33,057 nucleotides of DNA from a virus (lineage: Duplodnaviria; Heunggongvirae; Uroviricota; Caudoviricetes). The position numbers and the translations under genes are program-made. Within the stretch, counting starts at the first letter, position 1, and the number at the start of each line of letters is the position of its first letter. The stretch is from positions 1 to 33,057 of the IMG/VR virus record IMGVR_UViG_2713896897_000015, one strand, 5' to 3'. Below the pieces are notes generated by a model. It was not told where the DNA came from. It made no database searches and saw only the letters and a list, made by a program, of their open reading frames with translations. Shown one piece after another: positions 8,266 through 33,057 of the stretch.

Positions 8266-9150
8266 ATGAAATTTTATACTCCATTAAGATACCCCGGCGG
8301 GAAAGGTAAGTTATCTTACTTTTTAAAAGATGTTATTGAAAAAAACTCGTTGAATGATGGAGCATATGCAGAACCTTACGCTGGTGGTGCAGGGGTGGCT
8401 TTAGAATTATTATTGGAAGAGTATGTCCGTAAAATCTATATAAATGATGCAGATTTTGCTGTTTATTCTTTTTGGTCATCTGTTGTTAGTGATACTGATG
8501 AGCTTTGCCGACTTATTAGCCGAGCAAAGATAGATATGGATGAATGGTCTTTTCATCGCTATGTTATTTCGAATCCTTCTGAGTTTACTAAGCTTGAGGT
8601 TGGCTTTGCTGCGTTTTTCTTAAATAGAACAAATCGTTCAGGTATTCTCAAGGCGGGGGTTATAGGTGGGAAATCACAAAATGGAAAATGGAAAATGGAT
8701 GTTCGCTTTAACAGGGCGGATTTAATTTCAAGAATTGAGAAGATAGCAAATTATAATCAAAGAATAGTAGTAACTAATCTGGATGCTTTGGATTTTCTTG
8801 ATGCCTTGAATTTTATGGATAATATGGGAAAGGTGGATAAAAATAAAATTCTTTTGTATTTGGATCCTCCTTACTATATTAAAGGGCAAGGGCTTTACAG
8901 GAATTTTTATGAGCATGATGATCATGTATTGGTTATGAAGAAACTCACAGAAATTAATTTCCCAAATTGGCTTGTTTCTTATGATAATGCTAAGGAAATT
9001 AAAGATATTTATAATGAATTTCCGCAAGTTGAGTATTCATTGCAATATACAGCGCATCTCAAAAAATCTGGAGAGGAAGTGATGATTTTTTCTCCTGAAA
9101 TAATTATTCCTAATACCCTGAAAGGGGTCTCAATGCCAACTTGCGCCTGA
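8266..9150 (+). CDS. Dam-family (D12 class) N6-adenine DNA methyltransferase; cargo gene 2
   Basis: 294-aa ORF with RYPGGKGKL (compare Dam KWAGGK), EPYAGGAGV (compare Dam EPFVGAGSV) and DPPY catalytic motif (LYLDPPYY). AGGGA RBS upstream; 69-bp gap after the ParB-like gene suggests an operon. AT-rich. Confidence 0.9.
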   Translation: MKFYTPLRYPGGKGKLSYFLKDVIEKNSLNDGAYAEPYAGGAGVALELLLEEYVRKIYINDADFAVYSFWSSVVSDTDELCRLISRAKIDMDEWSFHRYVISNPSEFTKLEVGFAAFFLNRTNRSGILKAGVIGGKSQNGKWKMDVRFNRADLISRIEKIANYNQRIVVTNLDALDFLDALNFMDNMGKVDKNKILLYLDPPYYIKGQGLYRNFYEHDDHVLVMKKLTEINFPNWLVSYDNAKEIKDIYNEFPQVEYSLQYTAHLKKSGEEVMIFSPEIIIPNTLKGVSMPTCA

Positions 9151-19716: not shown

Positions 19717-20625
19717 ATGCCGATTATCGACCTGAACCAGCTACCCGCACCGGATGTGGTCGAGGAGCTGGACTTTGAAACCATTCTTGCCGAACGCAAG
19801 GCGACACTGATTTCCCTTTACCCGGAAGACCAGCAGGAGGCGGTTGCCCGTACCCTGACGCTGGAATCTGAGCCTCTCGTCAAACTGCTGGAGGAAAATG
19901 CTTATCGTGAGCTTATCTGGCGTCAGCGTGTGAATGAGGCCGCACGGGCGGTGATGCTGGCCTGTGCCGCCGGTAATGACCTTGATGTGATTGGTGCCAA
20001 TTACAACACCACGCGCCTGATTATCACCCCGGCAGATGATTCGACTATCCCGCCGACACCGGCAGTGATGGAGTCTGACACCGATTATCGTCTGCGTATT
20101 CAGCAGGCGTTTGAGGGCTTAAGCGTCGCCGGGTCGGTGGGTGCCTATCAGTATCATGGTCGCAGTGCCGACGGGCGCGTCGCGGATATCTCTGTCACCA
20201 GTCCGTCTCCGGCCTGCGTCACTATCTCTGTGCTGTCACGTGAAAATAACGGTGTCGCATCCGAAGACCTGCTGGCTGTGGTGCGTAACGCCCTTAATGG
20301 CGAGGACGTCAGGCCGGTGGCTGACCGTGTGACCGTGCAGTCTGCCGCCATCGTTGAATACCAGATAAACGCCACGCTTTACCTTTACCCTGGCCCCGAA
20401 AGCGAACCCATTCGCGCTGCCGCCGTGAAAAAACTGGAAGCGTATATCACGGCACAGCACCGGCTGGGGCGCGACATCCGTCTGTCTGCCATTTATGCCG
20501 CTTTGCATGTGGAAGGCGTGCAGCGTGTCGAACTGACTGCACCGCTGGCCGACATCGTGCTCAACAGTACGCAGGCGTCTTTCTGTACCGAATACCGCGT
20601 CGTGACCGGAGGCTCGGATGAGTGA
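19717..20625 (+). CDS. J: Baseplate wedge protein J
   Basis: 302-aa ORF, P2 J length. Confidence 0.9.
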   Translation: MPIIDLNQLPAPDVVEELDFETILAERKATLISLYPEDQQEAVARTLTLESEPLVKLLEENAYRELIWRQRVNEAARAVMLACAAGNDLDVIGANYNTTRLIITPADDSTIPPTPAVMESDTDYRLRIQQAFEGLSVAGSVGAYQYHGRSADGRVADISVTSPSPACVTISVLSRENNGVASEDLLAVVRNALNGEDVRPVADRVTVQSAAIVEYQINATLYLYPGPESEPIRAAAVKKLEAYITAQHRLGRDIRLSAIYAALHVEGVQRVELTAPLADIVLNSTQASFCTEYRVVTGGSDE

Positions 20626-21229
20626 TTCGCGACTGCTGCCGACTGGCTCATCACCGCTTGAAGTTGCCGCCGCAAAAGCCTGTGCGGAAATTGAAAAAAC
20701 GCCGGTCAGTATTCGTGAGCTGTGGAACCCGGATACCTGCCCGGCAAATCTGCTGCCGTGGCTGGCGTGGTCATTTTCGGTTGACCGCTGGGATGATAAG
20801 TGGCCGGAAGCGACAAAACGCGCTGTTATCCGCGATGCGTATTTCATTCACTGCCATAAGGGCACTATAGGCGCAATCCGGCGTGTGGTGGAGCCGCTCG
20901 GCTATCTGATTGAGGTGAGGGAGTGGTGGCAACTCAATGAGGAGCCGGGGACGTTCCGCATCGTTGTTGGCGTGCTTGAGCAGGGTATTACCGAGGAAAT
21001 GTATCAGGAGCTGGAGCGCCTCGTTGCTGATGCAAAACCGGCGAGCCGCCATCTGACGGGACTGGCTATCAGTTTAAGTACAACCGGCAACATTTTTGCC
21101 GGTGCGGGATGCTATCACGGCGACGCCCTGACGGTTTATCCCTACACCCCGGAGGCCATTATTGTCGGAGGGGATTATTTCCCGGCCTCGGCCATTCATT
21201 TAATTGATAACCTGAGAGTAAACGCATGA
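20618..21229 (+). CDS. I: Baseplate protein I
   Basis: 203-aa ORF overlapping the J stop; N-terminus MSDSRLLPTGSSPLEVAAAKA as in P2 I, with a longer C-terminus. Confidence 0.88.
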   Translation: MSDSRLLPTGSSPLEVAAAKACAEIEKTPVSIRELWNPDTCPANLLPWLAWSFSVDRWDDKWPEATKRAVIRDAYFIHCHKGTIGAIRRVVEPLGYLIEVREWWQLNEEPGTFRIVVGVLEQGITEEMYQELERLVADAKPASRHLTGLAISLSTTGNIFAGAGCYHGDALTVYPYTPEAIIVGGDYFPASAIHLIDNLRVNA

Positions 21230-22725
21230 CAGTGAAATACTACGCCATTCTGACTAATCAGGGCGCAGCACGGCTGGCTAACGCGACGATGCTCGGCAGT
21301 AAGCTGAATCTGACGCAAATGGCCGTTGGTGATGCGAATGGTGTCTTGCCGACACCAGACCCGGCACAGACAAAACTGATTAACCAGAAACGCATCGCGC
21401 CGCTGAATCTTCTGAGTGTTGACCCGAACAACCAGAGCCAGATTATTGCGGAGCAAATCATCCCTGAGAACGAGGGCGGATTCTGGATCCGTGAGATTGG
21501 GCTTTATGATGATGAAGGCGTACTCATTGCGGTGGCAAACTGCCCGGAAACGTACAAACCGCAGTTGCAGGAAGGAAGCGGTCGTACCCAGACTATCCGC
21601 ATGATTCTGGTTGTCTCGAATACCGAAGCCATCACGCTGAAAATCGACCCGTCGGTGGTACTGGCGACCCGTAAATACGTGGATGATGAAGTCCTGGAAT
21701 TAAGGCTGTATGTGGATGACCAGATGAGAAACCACATTGCCGCACAGGATCCTCATACCCAGTATGCACAGAAACATAATCCGACATTTACCGGAGAACC
21801 AAAAGCGCCGACGCCTGCCGCAGGAAATAACACCACGCGGATTGCGACTACTGCGTTTGTTCAGGCCGCTATTACCGCTCTGATTAACGGTGCGCCAGCC
21901 ACGCTGGACACACTGAAAGAAATTGCCGCAGCCATTAACAATGACCCGAAATTCAGCACCACCATTAACAATGAGCTGGCACTGAAAGCGCCGCTGTCGA
22001 GTCCCGCACTTACCGGAACGCCAACAGCACCTACTGCGGCACAGTCGGTCAACAATACACAGATTGCCACCACGGCTTTTGTGAAATCAGCAATTGCGGC
22101 AATGGTGGGTTCTGCCCCTGCGGCACTGGATACACTGAATGAACTGGCGGCGGCGCTGGGGAATGACCCTAACTTTTCAACAACAGTGCTTAATGCACTG
22201 GCAGGCAAACAACCGCTGGACAATACGCTTACTAATTTGAGTGGAAAGGATGTTGCTGGTCTTCTCGCATACCTTGGTTTGGGAGAAGGCTCTGCATTAC
22301 CGGTTGGGGTGCCTGTTCCGTGGCCTTCAGCTACGCCGCCAACAGGCTGGCTGAAATGCAATGGCGCTGCCTTTGATAAGGTTAAATATCCCCGTCTTGC
22401 TACAGCATATCCATCAGGGAAACTACCTGATCTCCGCGGTGAGTTTATTCGTGGCTGGGATGACGGGCGCGGTATTGATACAGGGCGTGCTTTATTGAGT
22501 ATTCAGAGTGATGAAGTCAGAAAGCTCGCATTAAAATACTGGGGACCAGCTTCAAACAGTTCACCATCAAAAACATTTGCACTCAGCGACAGTGCCGGTG
22601 GCGGGTTGTACACGGATGGAATAAGTCAGGCAAGTGGTGGGATTATCAACGCTTTTCAGCTCCCTGGCGGTAACGAAACCCGCCCACGAAATGTTGCATT
22701 TAACTATATCGTGAGGGCTGCATAA
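21226..22725 (+). CDS. H: Tail fibre protein H (constant N-terminal part fused to the currently expressed variable C-terminal domain)
   Basis: 499-aa ORF with internal about 75-aa tandem repeats (IATTAFV...LDTLKEIAAA...NDPKFSTT) and a tail-collar-type C-terminus (PVGVPVPWP...GWLKCNG...YPRL...LPDLRGEFIRG). It is shorter than P2 H (669 aa). The inversion crossover site lies inside it at 22262-22287. Confidence 0.9.
   Translation: MTVKYYAILTNQGAARLANATMLGSKLNLTQMAVGDANGVLPTPDPAQTKLINQKRIAPLNLLSVDPNNQSQIIAEQIIPENEGGFWIREIGLYDDEGVLIAVANCPETYKPQLQEGSGRTQTIRMILVVSNTEAITLKIDPSVVLATRKYVDDEVLELRLYVDDQMRNHIAAQDPHTQYAQKHNPTFTGEPKAPTPAAGNNTTRIATTAFVQAAITALINGAPATLDTLKEIAAAINNDPKFSTTINNELALKAPLSSPALTGTPTAPTAAQSVNNTQIATTAFVKSAIAAMVGSAPAALDTLNELAAALGNDPNFSTTVLNALAGKQPLDNTLTNLSGKDVAGLLAYLGLGEGSALPVGVPVPWPSATPPTGWLKCNGAAFDKVKYPRLATAYPSGKLPDLRGEFIRGWDDGRGIDTGRALLSIQSDEVRKLALKYWGPASNSSPSKTFALSDSAGGGLYTDGISQASGGIINAFQLPGGNETRPRNVAFNYIVRAA
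21826..22240 (+). repeat. Intragenic tandem repeat (about 225-nt period, two copies) within H
   Basis: Protein repeats NTTRIATTAFVQAAITALINGAPATLDTLKEIAAAINNDPKFSTTINNELALKAP and NNTQIATTAFVKSAIAAMVGSAPAALDTLNELAAALGNDPNFSTTVLNALAGKQP. Coordinates are approximate. Confidence 0.6.
22262..22287. repeat. Invertase crossover site (gix/hix-like), left, inside H
   Basis: TTCTCGCATACCTTGGTTTGGGAGAA is an inverted copy of the site at 24086-24111 (21 of 26 identical, 14 contiguous). It has the TTC..AAACC/GGTTT..GAA architecture of Gin/Hin/Pin/Cin recombination sites. Confidence 0.7.
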
Positions 22726-23327
22726 TGGATAATGCTGTATTAAATAGCGAGTTTATTGCCACGAAGGCGGGGAATATTACCGTCTATAACTATGATAGTG
22801 AAACACGGGAATATATTTCCACATCAACTGAATATCTTGCTGTCGGCGTCGGTATCCCTGCATGTTCTTGTTTAGATGCTCCTGGCTCACATAAAGCTGG
22901 TTATGCAATTTGCCGTTCTGCAGATTTTAACTCATGGGAATATGTGCCAGACCATCGCGGTGAAATCGTCTATAGCACCGAAACAGGAGAATCAAAAGAA
23001 ATCACAGCTCCGGGTGATTACCCTGAAAAGACAACCACTATCGCCACGTTAACGCCATACGATAAATGGGATGGTGAGAAATGGGTGACGGATACCGAGG
23101 CACAGCATAGCGCCGCAGTAGACGCGGCAGAAGCACAACGTCAGTCACTGATTGATACTGCAATGGCTTCCATCAGTCTGATTCAACTGAAATTGCAGGC
23201 CGGACGTAAACTAACGCAGGCAGAAACAACCCGGCTTAACGCTGTGCTGGATTACATTGACGCGGTGACGGCAACAGATACCGGCACCGCGCCGGATGTC
23301 ATCTGGCCTGAACTGCCGGAGGCGTAG
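22725..23327 (+). CDS. G: Tail fibre assembly chaperone (G; Mu U-like)
   Basis: 200-aa ORF directly after H (TAATG overlap). The C-terminal motif (...LIDTAMASISLIQ...LNAVLDYIDAV...APDVIWPELP) is shared with the convergent minus-strand paralog. Confidence 0.85.
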   Translation: MDNAVLNSEFIATKAGNITVYNYDSETREYISTSTEYLAVGVGIPACSCLDAPGSHKAGYAICRSADFNSWEYVPDHRGEIVYSTETGESKEITAPGDYPEKTTTIATLTPYDKWDGEKWVTDTEAQHSAAVDAAEAQRQSLIDTAMASISLIQLKLQAGRKLTQAETTRLNAVLDYIDAVTATDTGTAPDVIWPELPEA

Positions 23328-23742
23328 GCCATTCATTATCTGGCGCACCGGAAGTATCGACCAGTTCCAGTGCGTCCAGGTAATCCAGCCACAAATTATA
23401 TTGCGCCAGTTCGTCACCTTTCAGACGACCAATAGCTGCTTTGCCAGGCCATTGCTTACTGTTCATATATTCGTTGGCATTATCAATAAGATTTTGCTTT
23501 TGAGCTGTGGCAAGGAGTATTGCTTCTTCAGGAGCCATTGGTGGAATATCAACCCACTCAGGTTGTCCATCATCATTTGCACCGCGCGCTTTCCCTTCAG
23601 GTGGTGTTCCTGAATAAGTCAAAAATATTTCATCAGATACTGGTGTAATATCATCCGGTAAGCTGTCATATGAGCGATATAGCTCCAGCATATCTACCGG
23701 ATAAAAAGCTAACGTCGTCCGTGAAAAATAATAATTACTCAT
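23299..23742 (-). CDS. Alternative tail fibre assembly chaperone (G'), used in the inverted orientation
   Basis: 147-aa minus-strand ORF with a Tfa-type C-terminus (NLIDNANEYMNSKQW...LWLDYLDALELVDTSGAPDNEWP). It converges on G and overlaps its 3' end by 29 nt. Confidence 0.8.
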   Translation of the reverse strand: MSNYYFSRTTLAFYPVDMLELYRSYDSLPDDITPVSDEIFLTYSGTPPEGKARGANDDGQPEWVDIPPMAPEEAILLATAQKQNLIDNANEYMNSKQWPGKAAIGRLKGDELAQYNLWLDYLDALELVDTSGAPDNEWPTPPAVQAR

Positions 23743-23743
23743 A

Positions 23744-24085
23744 TCAGCACCCTATTGCAAACCAGCGAAAATTATAATTGCCACCAGAAGCATCACAGCG
23801 TAGAAGAAATCCTGTCCTGGTCATATTCCCTGCTGCCCCGGCAACAATTTTTCCGCCACCATTATCGTAGGACGTCACCACCTGAAAACATTGCGACGGA
23901 AAAGCGATTGGGAAATTCATCTCATTGCCTGTCGAGCCTACATAACCCGTACCTGCGTCTCCTGCCCCCCATTGGATAATCAATCCTCCCGGTAACTTCT
24001 GATATCCCTTGCTGGCAATGCTGCCAGAAAAAGAACTCATATCCGGTATCTGACCTGAACCTGTTCCTACATTCCGTTTTGCCGC
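23744..24085 (-). CDS. Promoterless alternative tail-fibre C-terminal cassette (Hv'), fused in-frame to H after inversion
   Basis: The minus-strand frame through the 24086-24111 site encodes ...VGLGE-AAKRNVGTGSGQIPDMSSFSGS...NYNFRWFAIGC-stop, in the same codon register as LGLGE at the left site in H. Its stop is 1 nt before the G' start. Confidence 0.7.
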   Translation of the reverse strand, partial: AAKRNVGTGSGQIPDMSSFSGSIASKGYQKLPGGLIIQWGAGDAGTGYVGSTGNEMNFPIAFPSQCFQVVTSYDNGGGKIVAGAAGNMTRTGFLLRCDASGGNYNFRWFAIGC

Positions 24086-24111
24086 TTCTCCCAAACCAAC
24101 GTTTATGAAAA
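24086..24111. repeat. Invertase crossover site (gix/hix-like), right
   Basis: TTCTCCCAAACCAACGTTTATGAAAA, an inverted partner of 22262-22287, lies about 50 bp upstream of the invertase gene. Confidence 0.7.
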
Positions 24112-24160
24112 TGCAGAGATAACGGGCAACTGGCATCATCTCCGGTTTTTATTCAGGGGG

Positions 24161-24760
24161 ATGCTCATGCTTATTGGCTATGTACGCGTGTCAACAAATG
24201 ACCAGAACACGGAATTGCAGCGTAACGCGCTGGAGTGTGCAGGATGTGAGCTGATTTTTGAGGATAAAATCAGCGGCACGAAGTCCGACCGACCGGGACT
24301 GAAAAAACTGCTCAGAACATTATCAGCAGGTGACACTCTGGTGGTCTGGAAGCTGGACAGGCTGGGGCGTAGTATGCGGCATCTGGTCATTCTGGTTGAG
24401 GAGCTGCGCGAACGCGGCGTTAATTTTCGCAGCCTGACGGATGCTATTGATACCAGCACGCCGATGGGGCGCTTTTTCTTTCATGTGATGGGTGCCCTGG
24501 CTGAAATGGAGCGAGAACTCATTGTCGAGCGGACACGCGCCGGACTGGAAGCGGCCAGAGCCAAAGGTCGTATTGGTGGCAGACGACCGAAACTCACCAC
24601 GAGTGAGTGGGAGCAGGTCGGACGGTTGCTGGCTGCGGGGGAATCTCGTCAACGTGTGGCGCTGATTTTTGATATTGGCCTGTCCACGCTCTATAAAAAA
24701 TTCCCCTCATCAGCGACAAAGAATAAATTGTGTCATCCCTTAGCCAACCGGGACAAATAG
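24161..24760 (+). CDS. Serine DNA invertase (Gin/Hin/Pin/Cin family)
   Basis: 199-aa ORF; N-terminal catalytic domain with the GYVRVSTNDQ serine motif and a C-terminal HTH. AGGGGG RBS upstream; an alternative ATG lies at 24167. Confidence 0.93.
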   Translation: MLMLIGYVRVSTNDQNTELQRNALECAGCELIFEDKISGTKSDRPGLKKLLRTLSAGDTLVVWKLDRLGRSMRHLVILVEELRERGVNFRSLTDAIDTSTPMGRFFFHVMGALAEMERELIVERTRAGLEAARAKGRIGGRRPKLTTSEWEQVGRLLAAGESRQRVALIFDIGLSTLYKKFPSSATKNKLCHPLANRDK

Positions 24761-24819
24761 CCTGACATCTCCGGCACAACTGAAAATACCACTCACCCAT
24801 TAACCACGGAGTTAAACGG

Positions 24820-26010
24820 ATGAGTGACTATCATCACGGCGTGCAGGTGCTGGAGATTAACGACGGCACCCGCGTCATTTCCACCGTATCCACTGCCATT
24901 GTCGGCATGGTCTGCACGGCCAGCGATGCGGATGCGGAAACCTTCCCCCTCAATAAACCTGTGCTGATTACCAATGTGCAGAACGCAATTGCAAAGGCCG
25001 GTAAAAAAGGCACGCTGGCGGCATCGTTGCAGGCCATCGCTGACCAGTCAAAACCGGTCACCGTTGTCGTGCGCGTGGAAGACGGCACCGGTGATGACGA
25101 GGAAACGAAACTCGCGCAGACCGTTTCCAATATCATCGGCACCACCGACGAAAACGGTCAGTACACCGGACTGAAAGCCCTGCTGGCGGCGGAGTCGGTA
25201 ACTGGTGTTAAACCGCGTATTCTCGGCGTGCCGGGACTGGACACCAAAGAGGTGGCGGTTGCACTGGCATCAGTCTGTCAGAAGCTGCGCGCTTTCGGGT
25301 ATATCAGCGCATGGGGTTGTAAAACCATTTCCGAGGTGAAAGCCTACCGCCAGAATTTCAGCCAGCGTGAGCTGATGGTCATCTGGCCGGATTTCCTCGC
25401 ATGGGATACGGTCGCCAGTACCACCGCCACCGCGTATGCCACCGCCCGTGCGCTGGGTCTGCGCGCTAAAATTGACCAGGAGCAGGGCTGGCATAAAACG
25501 CTGTCCAACGTCGGGGTGAACGGTGTTACCGGCATCAGCGCGTCCGTATTCTGGGATTTGCAGGAGTCCGGCACCGATGCTGACCTGCTTAACGAGTCAG
25601 GCGTCACAACGCTGATTCGCCGTGACGGTTTCCGCTTCTGGGGTAACCGTACCTGCTCTGATGACCCGCTGTTCCTCTTTGAAAACTACACCCGCACCGC
25701 GCAGGTGCTGGCCGACACGATGGCTGAGGCGCACATGTGGGCGGTGGACAAGCCCATCACCGCAACGCTGATTCGCGACATCATTGACGGCATCAATGCC
25801 AAATTCCGTGAGTTGAAAACAAACGGCTATATCGTGGATGCGACCTGCTGGTTCAGCGAAGAATCCAACGATGCGGAAACCCTCAAGGCCGGAAAACTGT
25901 ATATCGACTACGACTATACACCGGTACCTCCTCTTGAAAACCTGACCCTGCGCCAGCGTATTACCGATAAATACCTGGCAAATCTGGTCACCTCGGTTAA
26001 CAGCAATTAA
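24820..26010 (+). CDS. FI: Contractile tail sheath protein
   Basis: 396-aa ORF, P2 FI length, followed by the tube gene. Confidence 0.95.
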   Translation: MSDYHHGVQVLEINDGTRVISTVSTAIVGMVCTASDADAETFPLNKPVLITNVQNAIAKAGKKGTLAASLQAIADQSKPVTVVVRVEDGTGDDEETKLAQTVSNIIGTTDENGQYTGLKALLAAESVTGVKPRILGVPGLDTKEVAVALASVCQKLRAFGYISAWGCKTISEVKAYRQNFSQRELMVIWPDFLAWDTVASTTATAYATARALGLRAKIDQEQGWHKTLSNVGVNGVTGISASVFWDLQESGTDADLLNESGVTTLIRRDGFRFWGNRTCSDDPLFLFENYTRTAQVLADTMAEAHMWAVDKPITATLIRDIIDGINAKFRELKTNGYIVDATCWFSEESNDAETLKAGKLYIDYDYTPVPPLENLTLRQRITDKYLANLVTSVNSN

Positions 26011-31435: not shown

Positions 31436-31460
31436 GCCCCTCAGTCGAGGGGCTTTTTTT
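31436..31460 (+). terminator. Rho-independent terminator after ogr
   Basis: GCCCCTC-AGTC-GAGGGGC (7-bp perfect stem) followed by seven T residues. Confidence 0.65.
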
Positions 31461-31524
31461 GTCGATGTGGTCAATGTGTGGACGCGACCAGAAATAAATC
31501 CTTTTATTTCAATTTGTTGTACGT

Positions 31525-31551
31525 AAAAAATAAGCCCGTGTAAGGGAGATT
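31525..31551. repeat. attR core (27 bp, ogr-proximal junction), identical to the 3' end of cyaR
   Basis: AAAAAATAAGCCCGTGTAAGGGAGATT is a direct repeat of 371-397 with two mismatches. Confidence 0.7.
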
Positions 31552-31611
31552 ACACAGGCTAAGGAGGTGGTTCCTGGTACAGCTAGCATTTTATGGGTTA
31601 TGTTTTTCAGC
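31525..31611 (-). ncRNA. cyaR: CyaR (RyeE) small regulatory RNA, CRP-activated, Hfq-dependent
   Basis: The minus strand reads GCUGAAAAACAUAACCCAUAAAAUGCUAGCUGUACCAGGAACCACCUCCUUAGCCUGUGUAAUCUCCCUUACACGGGCUUAUUUUUU, which matches the enterobacterial CyaR sequence as I remember it, including the terminator hairpin and U-tail. It lies downstream of yegQ on the same strand, as in E. coli K-12. Confidence 0.8.
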
Positions 31612-31645
31612 GAAACGGATGATAACCATAATAAATGCAGCTGTA

Positions 31646-31661
31646 TGTGATCGGTTTCTAA
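31646..31661. promoter_or_regulatory. Candidate CRP-binding site of the cyaR promoter
   Basis: TGTGATCGGTTTCTAA (one good TGTGA half-site and one weak) is centred about 42 bp upstream of the inferred CyaR 5' end, the class II CRP position. CyaR is known to be CRP-dependent. Confidence 0.35.
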
Positions 31662-31695
31662 GAATTTTCCATCCGGGAAAAATAATCGAAATTAA

Positions 31696-33057
31696 TTACT
31701 TACCGTGCGGATTACGCGTGGTTTCCCCGGAGAAATTACGCATCAACAGCGCGTAATTCAGCTCAAGATCCTGCGGTACTGGGATCCACACAGTATAACC
31801 ATCGCCAGGTGCGACCGGCATTGCTTCACCTTTGGCGTTTTCCATGTGCTCAAGGGTAAAGTTAATGTTGCCTTGTGGCGTCATCAGCTCAAGGCTGTCG
31901 CCAACGGAGAATTTATTTTTCACCGCTACAGCAGCAAAGTTGCCTTTGCGCTCACCGGTAAACTCACCAACAAACTGCTGGCGATCAGAAACCGAATAAC
32001 CGTATTCGTAGTTCTGATAATCGTCGTGAGTATGGCGACGCAGGAATCCTTCGGTGTAACCACGATGCGCCAGACCTTCCAGCGTTTCCAGCAGGCTGGT
32101 ATCGAACGGTTTGCCCGCCGCCGCATCATCAATCGCTTTACGATAAACCTGCGCGGTACGTGCGCAATAGTAGAAAGATTTGGTACGGCCTTCGATTTTC
32201 AGCGAATGCACGCCCATTTTGGTCAGGCGCTCAACGTGGGCGATGGCGCGCAGATCTTTCGAGTTCATGATGTAAGTGCCGTGTTCATCTTCGAACGCGG
32301 TCATATATTCGCCCGGACGCTGGGCTTCTTCGATCATAAACACTTTATCAGTTGGCGCGCCGATCCCCAGCGTCGGTTCAACGTTTTGCACCGGAATCGG
32401 TTCGTACTTGTGTACGATGTTGCCGACGTCATCTTCTTTGCCTTCCTGTACGTTGTACTCCCAGCGGCAGGCGTTAGTGCAGGTGCCCTGGTTCGGGTCG
32501 CGTTTGTTGATATAGCCAGAGAGCAGGCAGCGACCGGAGTAGGCCATGCACAATGCGCCGTGAACGAAGATCTCAAGCTCCATATCCGGCACCTGATTAC
32601 GGATCTCTTCAATCTCTTCCAGCGACAGCTCGCGAGAGAGGATCACGCGGGTCAGGCCCATTTGCTGCCAGAATTTCACCGTTGCCCAGTTCACGGCGTT
32701 AGCCTGTACTGAGAGGTGGATCGGCATTTCAGGGAAGTGCTCACGCACCAGCATAATCAGCCCCGGATCGGACATAATCAGCGCATCCGGCCCCATTTCC
32801 ACCACCGGTTTCAGGTCACGGATAAAAGTTTTCAGCTTGGCGTTGTGCGGTGCAATATTGACCACGACATAAAACTTTTTCCCCAGAGCGTGTGCTTCAT
32901 TGATGCCGAGCTGGAGATTTTCATGGTTGAATTCATTGTTGCGCACGCGCAGGGAGTAACGCGGCTGGCCCGCATAAACAGCATCTGCGCCATAAGCGAA
33001 AGCGTAACGCATATTTTTTAGCGTTCCCGCCGGGGAAAGGAGTTCCGGTTTAAACAT
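31696..33057 (-). CDS. yegQ: U32-family peptidase-like protein YegQ (TrhP, tRNA hydroxylation protein)
   Basis: 453-aa ORF whose N-terminus MFKPELLSPAGTLKNMRYAFAYGADAVYAGQPRYSLRVRNNEF matches E. coli YegQ from memory. The start codon is the last three bases of the window. G+C and codon usage look chromosomal. Confidence 0.92.
   Translation of the reverse strand: MFKPELLSPAGTLKNMRYAFAYGADAVYAGQPRYSLRVRNNEFNHENLQLGINEAHALGKKFYVVVNIAPHNAKLKTFIRDLKPVVEMGPDALIMSDPGLIMLVREHFPEMPIHLSVQANAVNWATVKFWQQMGLTRVILSRELSLEEIEEIRNQVPDMELEIFVHGALCMAYSGRCLLSGYINKRDPNQGTCTNACRWEYNVQEGKEDDVGNIVHKYEPIPVQNVEPTLGIGAPTDKVFMIEEAQRPGEYMTAFEDEHGTYIMNSKDLRAIAHVERLTKMGVHSLKIEGRTKSFYYCARTAQVYRKAIDDAAAGKPFDTSLLETLEGLAHRGYTEGFLRRHTHDDYQNYEYGYSVSDRQQFVGEFTGERKGNFAAVAVKNKFSVGDSLELMTPQGNINFTLEHMENAKGEAMPVAPGDGYTVWIPVPQDLELNYALLMRNFSGETTRNPHGK

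What the first reader, a model, noticed from the sequence alone, without database searches (positions are those of the whole stretch)
21226..22725. Tail fibre H has a non-P2 receptor-binding end and internal 75-aa tandem repeats
The N-terminal roughly 170 residues look like P2 H, but the protein is 499 aa rather than 669 aa. It contains two about 75-aa tandem repeats (about 21826-22240), and its current C-terminus carries a tail-collar-like motif set (PWP...GWLxCNG...YPxL...LPDLRGEFIRG) of the kind seen in Mu/P1-type fibre tips. The alternative cassette encodes an unrelated, glycine-rich C-terminus. The prophage therefore probably encodes two receptor specificities that differ from P2.
Basis: partly seen in the sequence, partly recalled or inferred. 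Interest (0 to 1): 0.45.

Follow-up and report, generated by a model that had tools for sequence, protein, structure and literature searches.

The report
Switchable tail-fibre gene of P2-like prophage
This is the tail-fibre gene of a P2-like prophage whose receptor-binding end can be swapped by flipping a 1.8-kb DNA segment; every part belongs to an already described family and a 99% identical copy is already in GenBank, so it is real but ordinary.

Summary
The sequence features are real. ORF 21226-22725 encodes a 499-aa P2 H-type fibre. It has a P2-like N-terminal domain (PF12571, aa 1-150) and two 74-aa tandem units at nt 21778-21999 and 22000-22221. Its C-terminus carries a Phage Tail Collar domain (PF07484).

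Three points in the interpretation need correcting.
- **Repeats.** They are the known 222-bp "b1/b2 repeated elements" of phage P1 S (78% aa identity). P2 H itself carries one such unit, so P2 similarity runs to aa 332, not 170.
- **Collar end.** It is not Mu/P1-type. Mu S/S', P1 S/S' and P2 H lack this domain. It matches e14 StfE and the collar (D10) of T4 gp37 and gp12.
- **Context.** Two 27-nt cix/gix-like inverted sites (22262-22288 and 24085-24111) flank a 1.82-kb segment next to a PinE-like invertase (87%). This is the same layout as the e14 P segment.

An in-silico flip gives an in-frame 467-aa H' ending in a gp53-like / R1-pyocin-foot-like domain. E. coli AH01 carries exactly this flipped form. 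Two receptor specificities different from P2 are therefore likely, but the receptors are unknown. KC618326 holds a 99% identical fibre. Low interest.

The parts
21226..22725 (+). Tail-fibre gene H in its present orientation (499 aa): constant part aa 1-350 plus collar-type variable end
   Evidence: ORF list; Pfam PF12571 and PF07484; 99% identical to the fibre of KC618326
21226..21675 (+). N-terminal P2 H-type domain (aa 1-150), presumed baseplate attachment
   Evidence: PF12571 E=1.4e-62; 52% identity to P2 H aa 1-151
21778..21999 (+). Shaft repeat unit 1 (74 aa), counterpart of P1 S element b1
   Evidence: Self-diagonal and DNA identity; 78% to P1 S aa 258-330; b1/b2 annotated in NC_005856
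22000..22221 (+). Shaft repeat unit 2 (74 aa), counterpart of P1 S element b2 and of the single b unit of P2 H (aa 256-329)
   Evidence: 81% to P1 S aa 331-404 and 78% to P2 H aa 256-329; 73% DNA identity to P2 13499-13714
22262..22288 (.). Left crossover site (cix/gix/pix-like), central TT at 22274-22275, inside codons for AYLGLGE
   Evidence: Inverted repeat I1; comparison with P1 cix and Mu gix; 2 matches in the window against 0 expected; core TTGGTTTGGGAGAAGG is identical to the e14 P-segment repeat quoted in PMC12529663
22276..22725 (+). Variable end 1: T4 gp37/gp12-type collar domain split by a short variable insert (about 22507-22674)
   Evidence: PF07484; PDB 2XGF, 9CUY, 1OCY; 55% to e14 StfE, with identical flanks and a divergent middle
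22725..23327 (+). Tail-fibre assembly chaperone for end 1 (200 aa, TfaE-like)
   Evidence: PF02413; 91% to e14 TfaE
23299..23742 (-). Tail-fibre assembly chaperone for end 2 (147 aa, TfaP-like C-terminus)
   Evidence: PF02413; 76% to the last 70 aa of e14 TfaP
23744..24097 (-). Variable end 2 (promoterless cassette; its ORF runs up to an ATG at 24139): gp53-like_C / R1-pyocin-foot-like domain
   Evidence: PF21882 E=2.9e-20; PDB 9ZD7, 6CXB, 6CL5, 4MTM; in-frame fusion after an in-silico flip
24085..24111 (.). Right crossover site, central AA at 24098-24099
   Evidence: the natural inversion breakpoints fall here
24161..24760 (+). Serine DNA invertase of the Pin/Cin/Gin group (likely start at ATG 24167)
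   Evidence: PF00239 and PF02796; 87% to PinE, 78% to Cin, 79% to Gin; the 5' region corresponding to the P1 enhancer is conserved

Best explanation
The locus is the tail-fibre module of a P2-like (Peduovirus) prophage. Its fibre gene H is built from known, horizontally exchanged modules and is controlled by a two-state DNA inversion switch of the e14 P-segment / P1 C-segment / Mu G-segment kind. The constant part (aa 1-350) has three pieces: a P2 H-type N-terminal domain, a short linker, and a shaft made of two 74-aa 'b' units shared with P1 S. Codons 346-354 (AYLGLGE) contain a 26-27-nt crossover site, and its inverted partner lies 1.8 kb downstream. The adjacent PinE-like serine invertase flips the intervening segment. 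In the present orientation, H ends in a T4 gp37/gp12-type collar domain carrying a short variable insert, which is the probable receptor-contacting tip, and is followed by a TfaE-like chaperone. In the other orientation, H' (467 aa) ends in a gp53-like / R1-pyocin-foot-like lectin-type domain and is followed by a TfaP-like chaperone. A lysogen population therefore releases virions with one of two receptor-binding tips, neither homologous to the P2 H tip. Shown here: the module identities, the sites, the in-frame fusion, and natural occurrence of both orientations. Inferred: current activity of the invertase, trimeric structure, and which receptors are bound.
For: Domains. Repeat statistics. 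P1 b1/b2 identity: 78% aa over 157 aa and 72% DNA over 422 nt, with the elements annotated in the P1 record. P2 H carries one b unit. Crossover sites: inverted repeat, alignment with cix and gix, only two sites against 0 expected by chance, and the same core as the e14 repeats in PMC12529663. An in-silico flip gives an uninterrupted 467-aa H'. E. coli AH01 (NZ_CP055251) has collinear flanks (98.7% and 97.1%) and an inverted interior (95.7%), with breakpoints at the two sites and an annotated 467-aa fibre. The Hc-collar junction occurs at 80% coverage or more in 345 of 5426 E. coli genomes. e14 homology: TfaE 91%, PinE 87%, StfE 55%, StfP 38%. PDB matches: T4 gp37 tip, phiTE short fibre and gp12 for end 1; R1 pyocin fibre and AP22 gp53 for end 2. 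Literature: inversion was shown experimentally in e14 and in P2-like prophages of EPEC (PMC4272514). T4 gp37 D10 is a collar into which the receptor-binding D11 domain is inserted (PMC6957217).
Against: No reads or experiments from the source strain, so the inversion activity of this copy is inferred. The enhancer region is conserved, but it lies in coding sequence, so conservation does not prove function. Receptor-binding roles are inferred from homologues with only 24-55% identity in the relevant parts. Single-sequence structure models were unusable (pLDDT 36 and 34).
Confidence: 0.9

Rival explanations
1. The switch is a frozen relic. The prophage expresses only the collar-type fibre and the gp53-like cassette is dead cargo.
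For: In assemblies, the collar-ON junction of this allele is far commoner (345 genomes) than the exact flipped junction (2 genomes at full length). No direct inversion data exist for this strain.
Against: The invertase ORF is intact and both Pfam domains are complete. Both sites retain the conserved core. The cassette and its chaperone are intact and in frame. A closely related prophage is found flipped. Many further genomes carry Hc fused to diverged gp53-like alleles, so the raw counts understate the flipped state.
Confidence: 0.07
2. One reading: the current C-terminus is a Mu/P1-type fibre tip.
For: Only the general organisation is Mu/P1-like: a constant part, invertible variable parts, a chaperone after each end, and a Gin/Cin-like invertase.
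Against: No BLASTP similarity of either variable end to Mu S, Mu Sv', P1 S or P1 Sv'. The Collar domain is absent from all of them. The chaperones give no BLASTP hit to Mu U/U', P1 U/U' or P2 G at E<1e-3.
Confidence: 0.02
3. The non-fused cassette ORF 23744-24139(-) is made as a free 131-aa protein with its own ATG. It would act for the host as an adsorption blocker of other phages, as reported for e14 StfE2. The inversion would then also toggle a defence function.
For: The ORF is built like e14 StfE2: a short leader running through the crossover site, followed by a gp53-like_C domain. Kirigo et al. 2025 report that plasmid-produced StfE2 blocks T2 adsorption (PMC12529663).
Against: Only about 21-27 nt separate this ORF from the divergent invertase gene. 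The promoter scan found no promoter-like site upstream of it on the minus strand. It is 38% identical to the e14 domain. The ATG may be a by-product of sequence next to the site. The published blocking mechanism rests on docking.
Confidence: 0.1
4. The 74-aa repeats are a compositional (Ala/Thr-rich) artefact rather than a true duplication.
For: Tandem Repeats Finder reports nothing, and third codon positions are near random.
Against: The diagonal score is 221 against 51 for the next best. DNA identity is about 9 sd above other offsets. Unit 1 matches P1 b1 best and unit 2 matches P1 b2 best. A relative (pro483) differs by exactly one 74-aa unit.
Confidence: 0.01

Closest known systems
Invertible P segment of cryptic prophage e14 (pinE, stfP/stfE, tfaP/tfaE) of E. 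coli K-12
   Same: Same gene order: fibre constant part, variable end, tfa, tfa' (-), variable end' (-), invertase. Same crossover core TTGGTTTGGGAGAAGG. The same pair of domain types (Collar and gp53-like_C). Identities are TfaE 91%, PinE 87% and StfE 55%.
   Different: Here the constant part is a complete P2 H-type fibre in an apparently complete prophage, not a truncated remnant. The insert within the collar (22507-22674), the gp53-like domain (38%) and the N-terminus of Tfa2 are different alleles.
P2-like phage of E. coli O157:H43 T22 (KC618326 / NC_041848, Peduovirus magyaro)
   Same: The fibre is 99% identical over all 499 aa, in the same orientation and with the same neighbouring genes including the invertase. 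It is 96.9% identical at DNA level over 77% of the first 25 kb of the window.
   Different: Cargo regions differ. The silent cassette is annotated there as a shorter hypothetical protein.
Phage P1 C segment (S/S', U/U', cin) and Mu G segment (S/S', U/U', gin)
   Same: Same mechanism and layout. The invertase is 78-79% identical. The P1 S constant part carries the same b1/b2 222-bp repeated elements (78% aa).
   Different: The variable ends and chaperones are unrelated in sequence. In P1 and Mu the invertible segments are larger (about 4.3 kb and 3 kb by the annotated boundaries).
Canonical P2 gpH (669 aa)
   Same: PF12571 N-terminal domain (52%) and one b unit (78%). Same genomic position after J and I.
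   Different: P2 H has two 'a'-type PF03406 repeats, only one b unit and a Gp34_trimer-containing C-terminus. It has no crossover site and no invertase. In P2, G and fun(Z) occupy this position. The replaced block is window 21055-24739.
T4 gp37 tip domain D10 (collar) and T4 gp12 collar; phiTE short tail fibre (9CUY)
   Same: Sequence matches to both halves of the collar, including the terminal ...NxAFNYIVR motif. In gp37 the receptor-binding domain is an insertion into the collar (PMC6957217).
   Different: The insert here spans at most about 60-70 residues, against 128 residues (882-1009) for D11 in gp37. No His-x-His iron-binding repeats are visible in the sequence.
R1-type pyocin fibre foot (6CXB/6CL5) and Acinetobacter phage AP22 gp53 (4MTM)
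   Same: Variable end 2 matches PF21882 and these chains.
   Different: The PDB matches are weak to moderate (E from 1e-6 to 9e-3). The receptor cannot be transferred from them.

Membership tests
P2 gpH-type tail fibre | N-terminal PF12571 domain | tested here: met
   E=1.4e-62, full-length match aa 1-150; 52% identity to P2 H
P2 gpH-type tail fibre | Position after baseplate genes V-W-J-I and before tail sheath FI in a P2-like genome | tested here: met
   ORF order; about 97% DNA identity to P2 on both sides
P2 gpH-type tail fibre | P2 H C-terminal receptor-binding region | tested here: not met
   No significant BLASTP match beyond aa 332; different Pfam content
Gin/Cin/Pin-type invertible tail-fibre switch | Adjacent serine invertase with resolvase catalytic domain and HTH | tested here: met
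   PF00239 E=2.8e-52 and PF02796 E=4.8e-13; 87% PinE, 78% Cin, 79% Gin
Gin/Cin/Pin-type invertible tail-fibre switch | Two inverted crossover sites of about 26 bp with the conserved core, one of them inside the fibre gene | tested here: met
   22262-22288 and 24085-24111; alignment with cix and gix; 2 found against 0 expected
Gin/Cin/Pin-type invertible tail-fibre switch | Inversion fuses the constant part in frame to an alternative C-terminus that is followed by its own chaperone gene | tested here: met
   In-silico H' of 467 aa without stops; Tfa genes on both strands
Gin/Cin/Pin-type invertible tail-fibre switch | Both orientations actually occur | tested here: met
   Shown between genomes, not within one culture: E. 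coli AH01 and MSB1_9I carry the flipped form, with breakpoints at the sites
Gin/Cin/Pin-type invertible tail-fibre switch | Fis-dependent recombinational enhancer in the 5' part of the invertase gene | tested here: inconclusive
   The first 124 nt have 88% mean column identity with cin, gin and pinE, and the P1 enhancer is annotated at cin nt 19-90. Coding constraint could explain the conservation.
Mu S / P1 S-type fibre tips | Sequence homology of the variable end to Mu S/S' or P1 Sv/Sv' | tested here: not met
   No BLASTP hit at E<1e-3; these tips carry PF21446 or PF12604, not PF07484
Phage tail collar domain (PF07484; T4 gp12 / gp37 D10) | Match to the family profile above the curated threshold, and to solved members | tested here: met
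   52.7 bits against a cutoff of 24; 2XGF E=1.6e-20, 9CUY E=7.7e-19, 1OCY E=4.9e-6
Phage tail collar domain (PF07484; T4 gp12 / gp37 D10) | Trimeric collar fold with an inserted tip domain | tested here: inconclusive
   Single-sequence AlphaFold2 model had pLDDT 36. The split match to both collar halves agrees with the fold but is not a structure.
Gp53-like_C (PF21882; R1 pyocin foot, AP22 gp53) | Match to the family profile above the curated threshold | tested here: met
   73 bits against a cutoff of 24.9, full-length 1-84 of 84; PDB hits
P1 S 'b' repeated element (222 bp) | Tandem 222-bp / 74-aa units homologous to P1 b1 and b2 | tested here: met
   Period of exactly 222 nt; 78% aa over 157 aa to P1 S aa 256-412; b1/b2 annotated at P1 36642-37086

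The most novel reading that the evidence does not exclude
The currently unfused cassette ORF (23744-24139, minus strand; 131 aa) has its own ATG, a leader running through the crossover site and a gp53-like domain, the same build as e14 'StfE2'. It might be expressed from the lysogen as a free protein that masks surface receptors. In that case the fibre switch of an intact P2-like prophage would also toggle a host-protective adsorption block against unrelated phages.
Probability: 0.08. Interest if true: 0.5.

Novelty: already known. Interest (0 to 1): 0.1.

Why it matters
It matters little beyond correct annotation. The locus is a clean example of how P2-like prophages exchange fibre modules: P1-type shaft units, e14-type invertible tips, and T4-type collar and pyocin-type foot domains. 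It also shows a prophage hedging between two host receptors. The practical uses are predicting host range and choosing fibre modules for engineered phages or tailocins. Nothing here challenges current understanding.

Tried and rejected
- Tandem Repeats Finder on 20500-26000 found no array in H. The repeat is too diverged at DNA level (60%) and had to be shown by diagonal scoring.
- Direct comparison with Mu S, Mu Sv', P1 S and P1 Sv' gave nothing for the variable ends. The Mu/P1-tip idea was dropped.
- Single-sequence AlphaFold2 models of both variable ends were unusable (mean pLDDT 36.4 and 33.8), so no fold search was run. I ran no further search on building alignments, because sequence matches to solved structures already placed both domains.
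- A search for a third crossover site, which would make a multi-state shufflon, found only the two sites.
- A literature search for PDB entry 9D93, the only solved chain matching the b unit, returned irrelevant papers. The fold of the b unit remains unassigned.
- One coordinate error on my part was corrected.
Full report
**1. What is at the coordinates**

The ORF 21226-22725(+) exists and encodes 499 aa. Its start overlaps the end of the gene I homologue (20618-21229). Its stop overlaps the start of a 200-aa tail-fibre assembly gene (22725-23327).

Pfam places a complete "Phage tail-collar fibre protein, N-terminal" domain (PF12571) at aa 1-150 (E=1.4e-62). It places a "Phage Tail Collar Domain" (PF07484) at aa 361-408 (E=4.1e-14).

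The window as a whole is a P2-like prophage. It is about 97% identical to P2 and other Peduovirus genomes over most of its length. An integrase-like ORF lies at the left end and the host gene yegQ at the right.

**2. The repeats**

- Scoring every diagonal of the protein against itself gives one outstanding offset, 74 aa. Its ungapped BLOSUM62 score is 221, against 51 for the next best.
- The units are aa 185-258 and 259-332, i.e. nt 21778-21999 and 22000-22221.
- They share 44/74 residues and 133/222 nucleotides. The best 222-nt windows at 223 other in-frame offsets average 72.5 +/- 6.5 matches.
- Third codon positions agree at only 26/74, so the duplication is old and is maintained at protein level. 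That is why Tandem Repeats Finder saw nothing.

The repeat is not a peculiarity of this gene. The two units together are 78% identical over 157 aa to aa 256-412 of the P1 S fibre, and 72% identical at DNA level over 422 nt. In the P1 record this stretch is annotated as "repeated element b1" and "b2", of 223 and 222 bp. Unit 1 matches b1 best and unit 2 matches b2 best, so the duplication predates the exchange between these phages.

P2 H itself has one b unit (aa 256-329, 78% identical to unit 2), preceded by two 'a'-type PF03406 repeats that the window protein lacks. Similarity to P2 H therefore reaches aa 332, not about 170.

Copy number varies among close relatives. Phage pro483 has a 399-aa H with a single hybrid unit, exactly 74 aa fewer in the shaft.

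**3. The invertible segment**

The strongest inverted repeat in the region is 22262-22288 against 24085-24111 (27 nt). Read in the same sense, the two sites compare with the known sites as follows:

| Site | Sequence |
|---|---|
| Window, left | TTCTCGCATACC TT GGTTTGGGAGAAG |
| Window, right (reverse complement) | TTTTCATAAACG TT GGTTTGGGAGAAG |
| P1 cix | ...CCAATACC TT GGTTTAAGAGAAC |
| Mu gix | ...CCAAAACC TC GGTTTACAGGAAAC |

The core TTGGTTTGGGAGAAGG is the very repeat reported to flank the e14 P segment (PMC12529663). A degenerate 19-mer for the site matches only these two places in the 33-kb window, with none expected by chance. The switch therefore has two states, not several.

The central TT occupies positions 2-3 of a Leu codon in H and of a Val codon in the opposite cassette. 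Joining 21226-22275 to the reverse complement of 24097 downwards gives an uninterrupted 467-aa H'.

Next to the right site lies a 199-aa serine recombinase (PF00239 plus PF02796). It is 87% identical to PinE, 78% to Cin and 79% to Gin. Its first 124 nt correspond to the region holding the annotated Cin enhancer, and they are 88% conserved across the four genes. That is suggestive, but the region is also coding sequence.

**4. Both orientations exist in nature**

A 500-nt query made from the predicted flipped junction matches E. coli AH01 (98.2%) and MSB1_9I (95.6%) over its full length.

In AH01 the annotation shows a 467-aa fibre, then the 147-aa Tfa, then on the opposite strand the 200-aa Tfa and a 178-aa collar cassette, then the recombinase. 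BLASTN shows collinear flanks (window 20600-22288 at 98.7% and 24085-25000 at 97.1%) and an inverted interior (22675-24102 at 95.7%). The breakpoints lie at the two sites.

The junction as found in the window occurs at 80% coverage or more in 345 of 5426 complete E. coli genomes. Inversion has been demonstrated experimentally within cultures for e14 and for P2-like prophages of EPEC (PMC4272514).

**5. What the two ends are**

*End 1 (aa 351-499)*

- It is 55% identical to e14 StfE.
- It matches the T4 gp37 tip crystal structure 2XGF (E=1.6e-20), the phiTE short tail fibre 9CUY (E=7.7e-19) and T4 gp12.
- The gp37 match is split. H aa 356-436 align with gp37 811-885. The last roughly 47 residues, ending ...RNVAFNYIVRAA, align with gp37 980-1026.
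- In gp37, residues 811-881 and 1010-1026 form the collar domain D10. The receptor-binding needle D11 is an insertion into it (PMC6957217).
- By analogy, the short stretch between the collar halves here is the likely receptor-contacting tip. This is the part that differs from e14 StfE and the AH01 cassette while the flanks are nearly identical.

*End 2 (117 aa after the site)*

- It is a full-length Gp53-like_C domain (PF21882, E=2.9e-20).
- It is 38% identical to the e14 StfP C-terminus.
- It has weak to moderate matches to the R1-pyocin fibre foot and AP22 gp53.

The two ends are essentially unrelated to each other (E=0.004 over 59 aa). Neither end matches P2 H, Mu S/S' or P1 Sv/Sv', and none of those proteins has a Collar domain. 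The right comparison is e14 StfE and the T4 collar.

Each end has its own PF02413 chaperone. Tfa1 is 91% identical to TfaE, and the C-terminus of Tfa2 is 76% identical to TfaP.

**6. Mosaic boundaries**

Relative to canonical P2, high identity stops at window 21054, inside gene I. It resumes at 24740, just upstream of FI. P2's end of I, H, G and fun(Z) are thus replaced by a 3.7-kb block holding the end of I, H, the two tfa genes, the second cassette and the invertase.

**7. Mechanism, and how sure**

Most likely (0.9), this is a working two-state fibre switch that gives the phage two receptor-binding tips, neither like that of P2.

- Shown: module identities, the sites, frame preservation and natural occurrence of both states.
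- Inferred: activity in this strain, the trimeric folds and the receptors.

Structure prediction from single sequences failed (pLDDT 36 and 34).

A minor alternative concerns the unfused cassette ORF (131 aa, own ATG). It could act like e14 StfE2, which is reported to block T2 adsorption (PMC12529663). There is little room for a promoter upstream, and no promoter-like site was found there.

**8. Novelty**

A 99% identical fibre with the same neighbours is deposited as the P2-like phage of E. coli O157:H43 T22 (KC618326). Full-length relatives at 61-79% identity occur in Escherichia, Salmonella, Klebsiella and Yersinia P2-like phages. All modules and the mechanism are textbook. The finding is correct in its facts, partly wrong in its attribution, and of low interest.

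Noticed in passing
window 6622-9150 (+): Two cargo genes between P2 gene A and the portal gene match the PD-Lambda-5 anti-phage system. Protein A is 524 aa (PADLOC E=9e-168). Protein B is 294 aa, a D12-class adenine methyltransferase (E=8e-122). They sit in the P2 tin/old cargo position.
   Followed up: partly
window 31450-33057: The flanking host gene yegQ (peptidase U32 family) is at most 95.8% identical to any of 5426 complete E. coli genomes. The host may therefore be a divergent Escherichia lineage rather than typical E. coli.
   Followed up: no
L010 3501-4700 (phage pro483 H) compared with window 21778-22221: pro483 H (399 aa) has one hybrid b unit where the window has two. The difference is exactly 74 aa, consistent with unequal recombination between units and with variable shaft length.
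   Followed up: partly
window 23744-24139 (-): The silent cassette is an ORF with its own ATG 14 codons upstream of the crossover site (MMPVARYLCIFINV|GLGE...). This is the same build as e14 'StfE2', which was reported to block T2 adsorption (PMC12529663).
   Followed up: partly
window 22507-22674: Inside the collar cassette, a stretch of about 170 nt has no DNA similarity to the e14 or AH01 alleles, although both flanks are 81-88% identical. It is a hypervariable insert and probably the receptor-contacting tip.
   Followed up: partly
window 21055-24739: P2's fun(Z) gene and the terminator after G are absent. The whole block from the end of I to just upstream of FI is replaced relative to canonical P2.
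   Followed up: yes
window 23246-23263 / 23372-23389, and 23299-23327: The two convergent tfa genes overlap by 29 nt. They also carry an 18-nt inverted repeat (89% complementary) that reflects their homologous C-termini (LDYIDA / LDYLDA).
   Followed up: no
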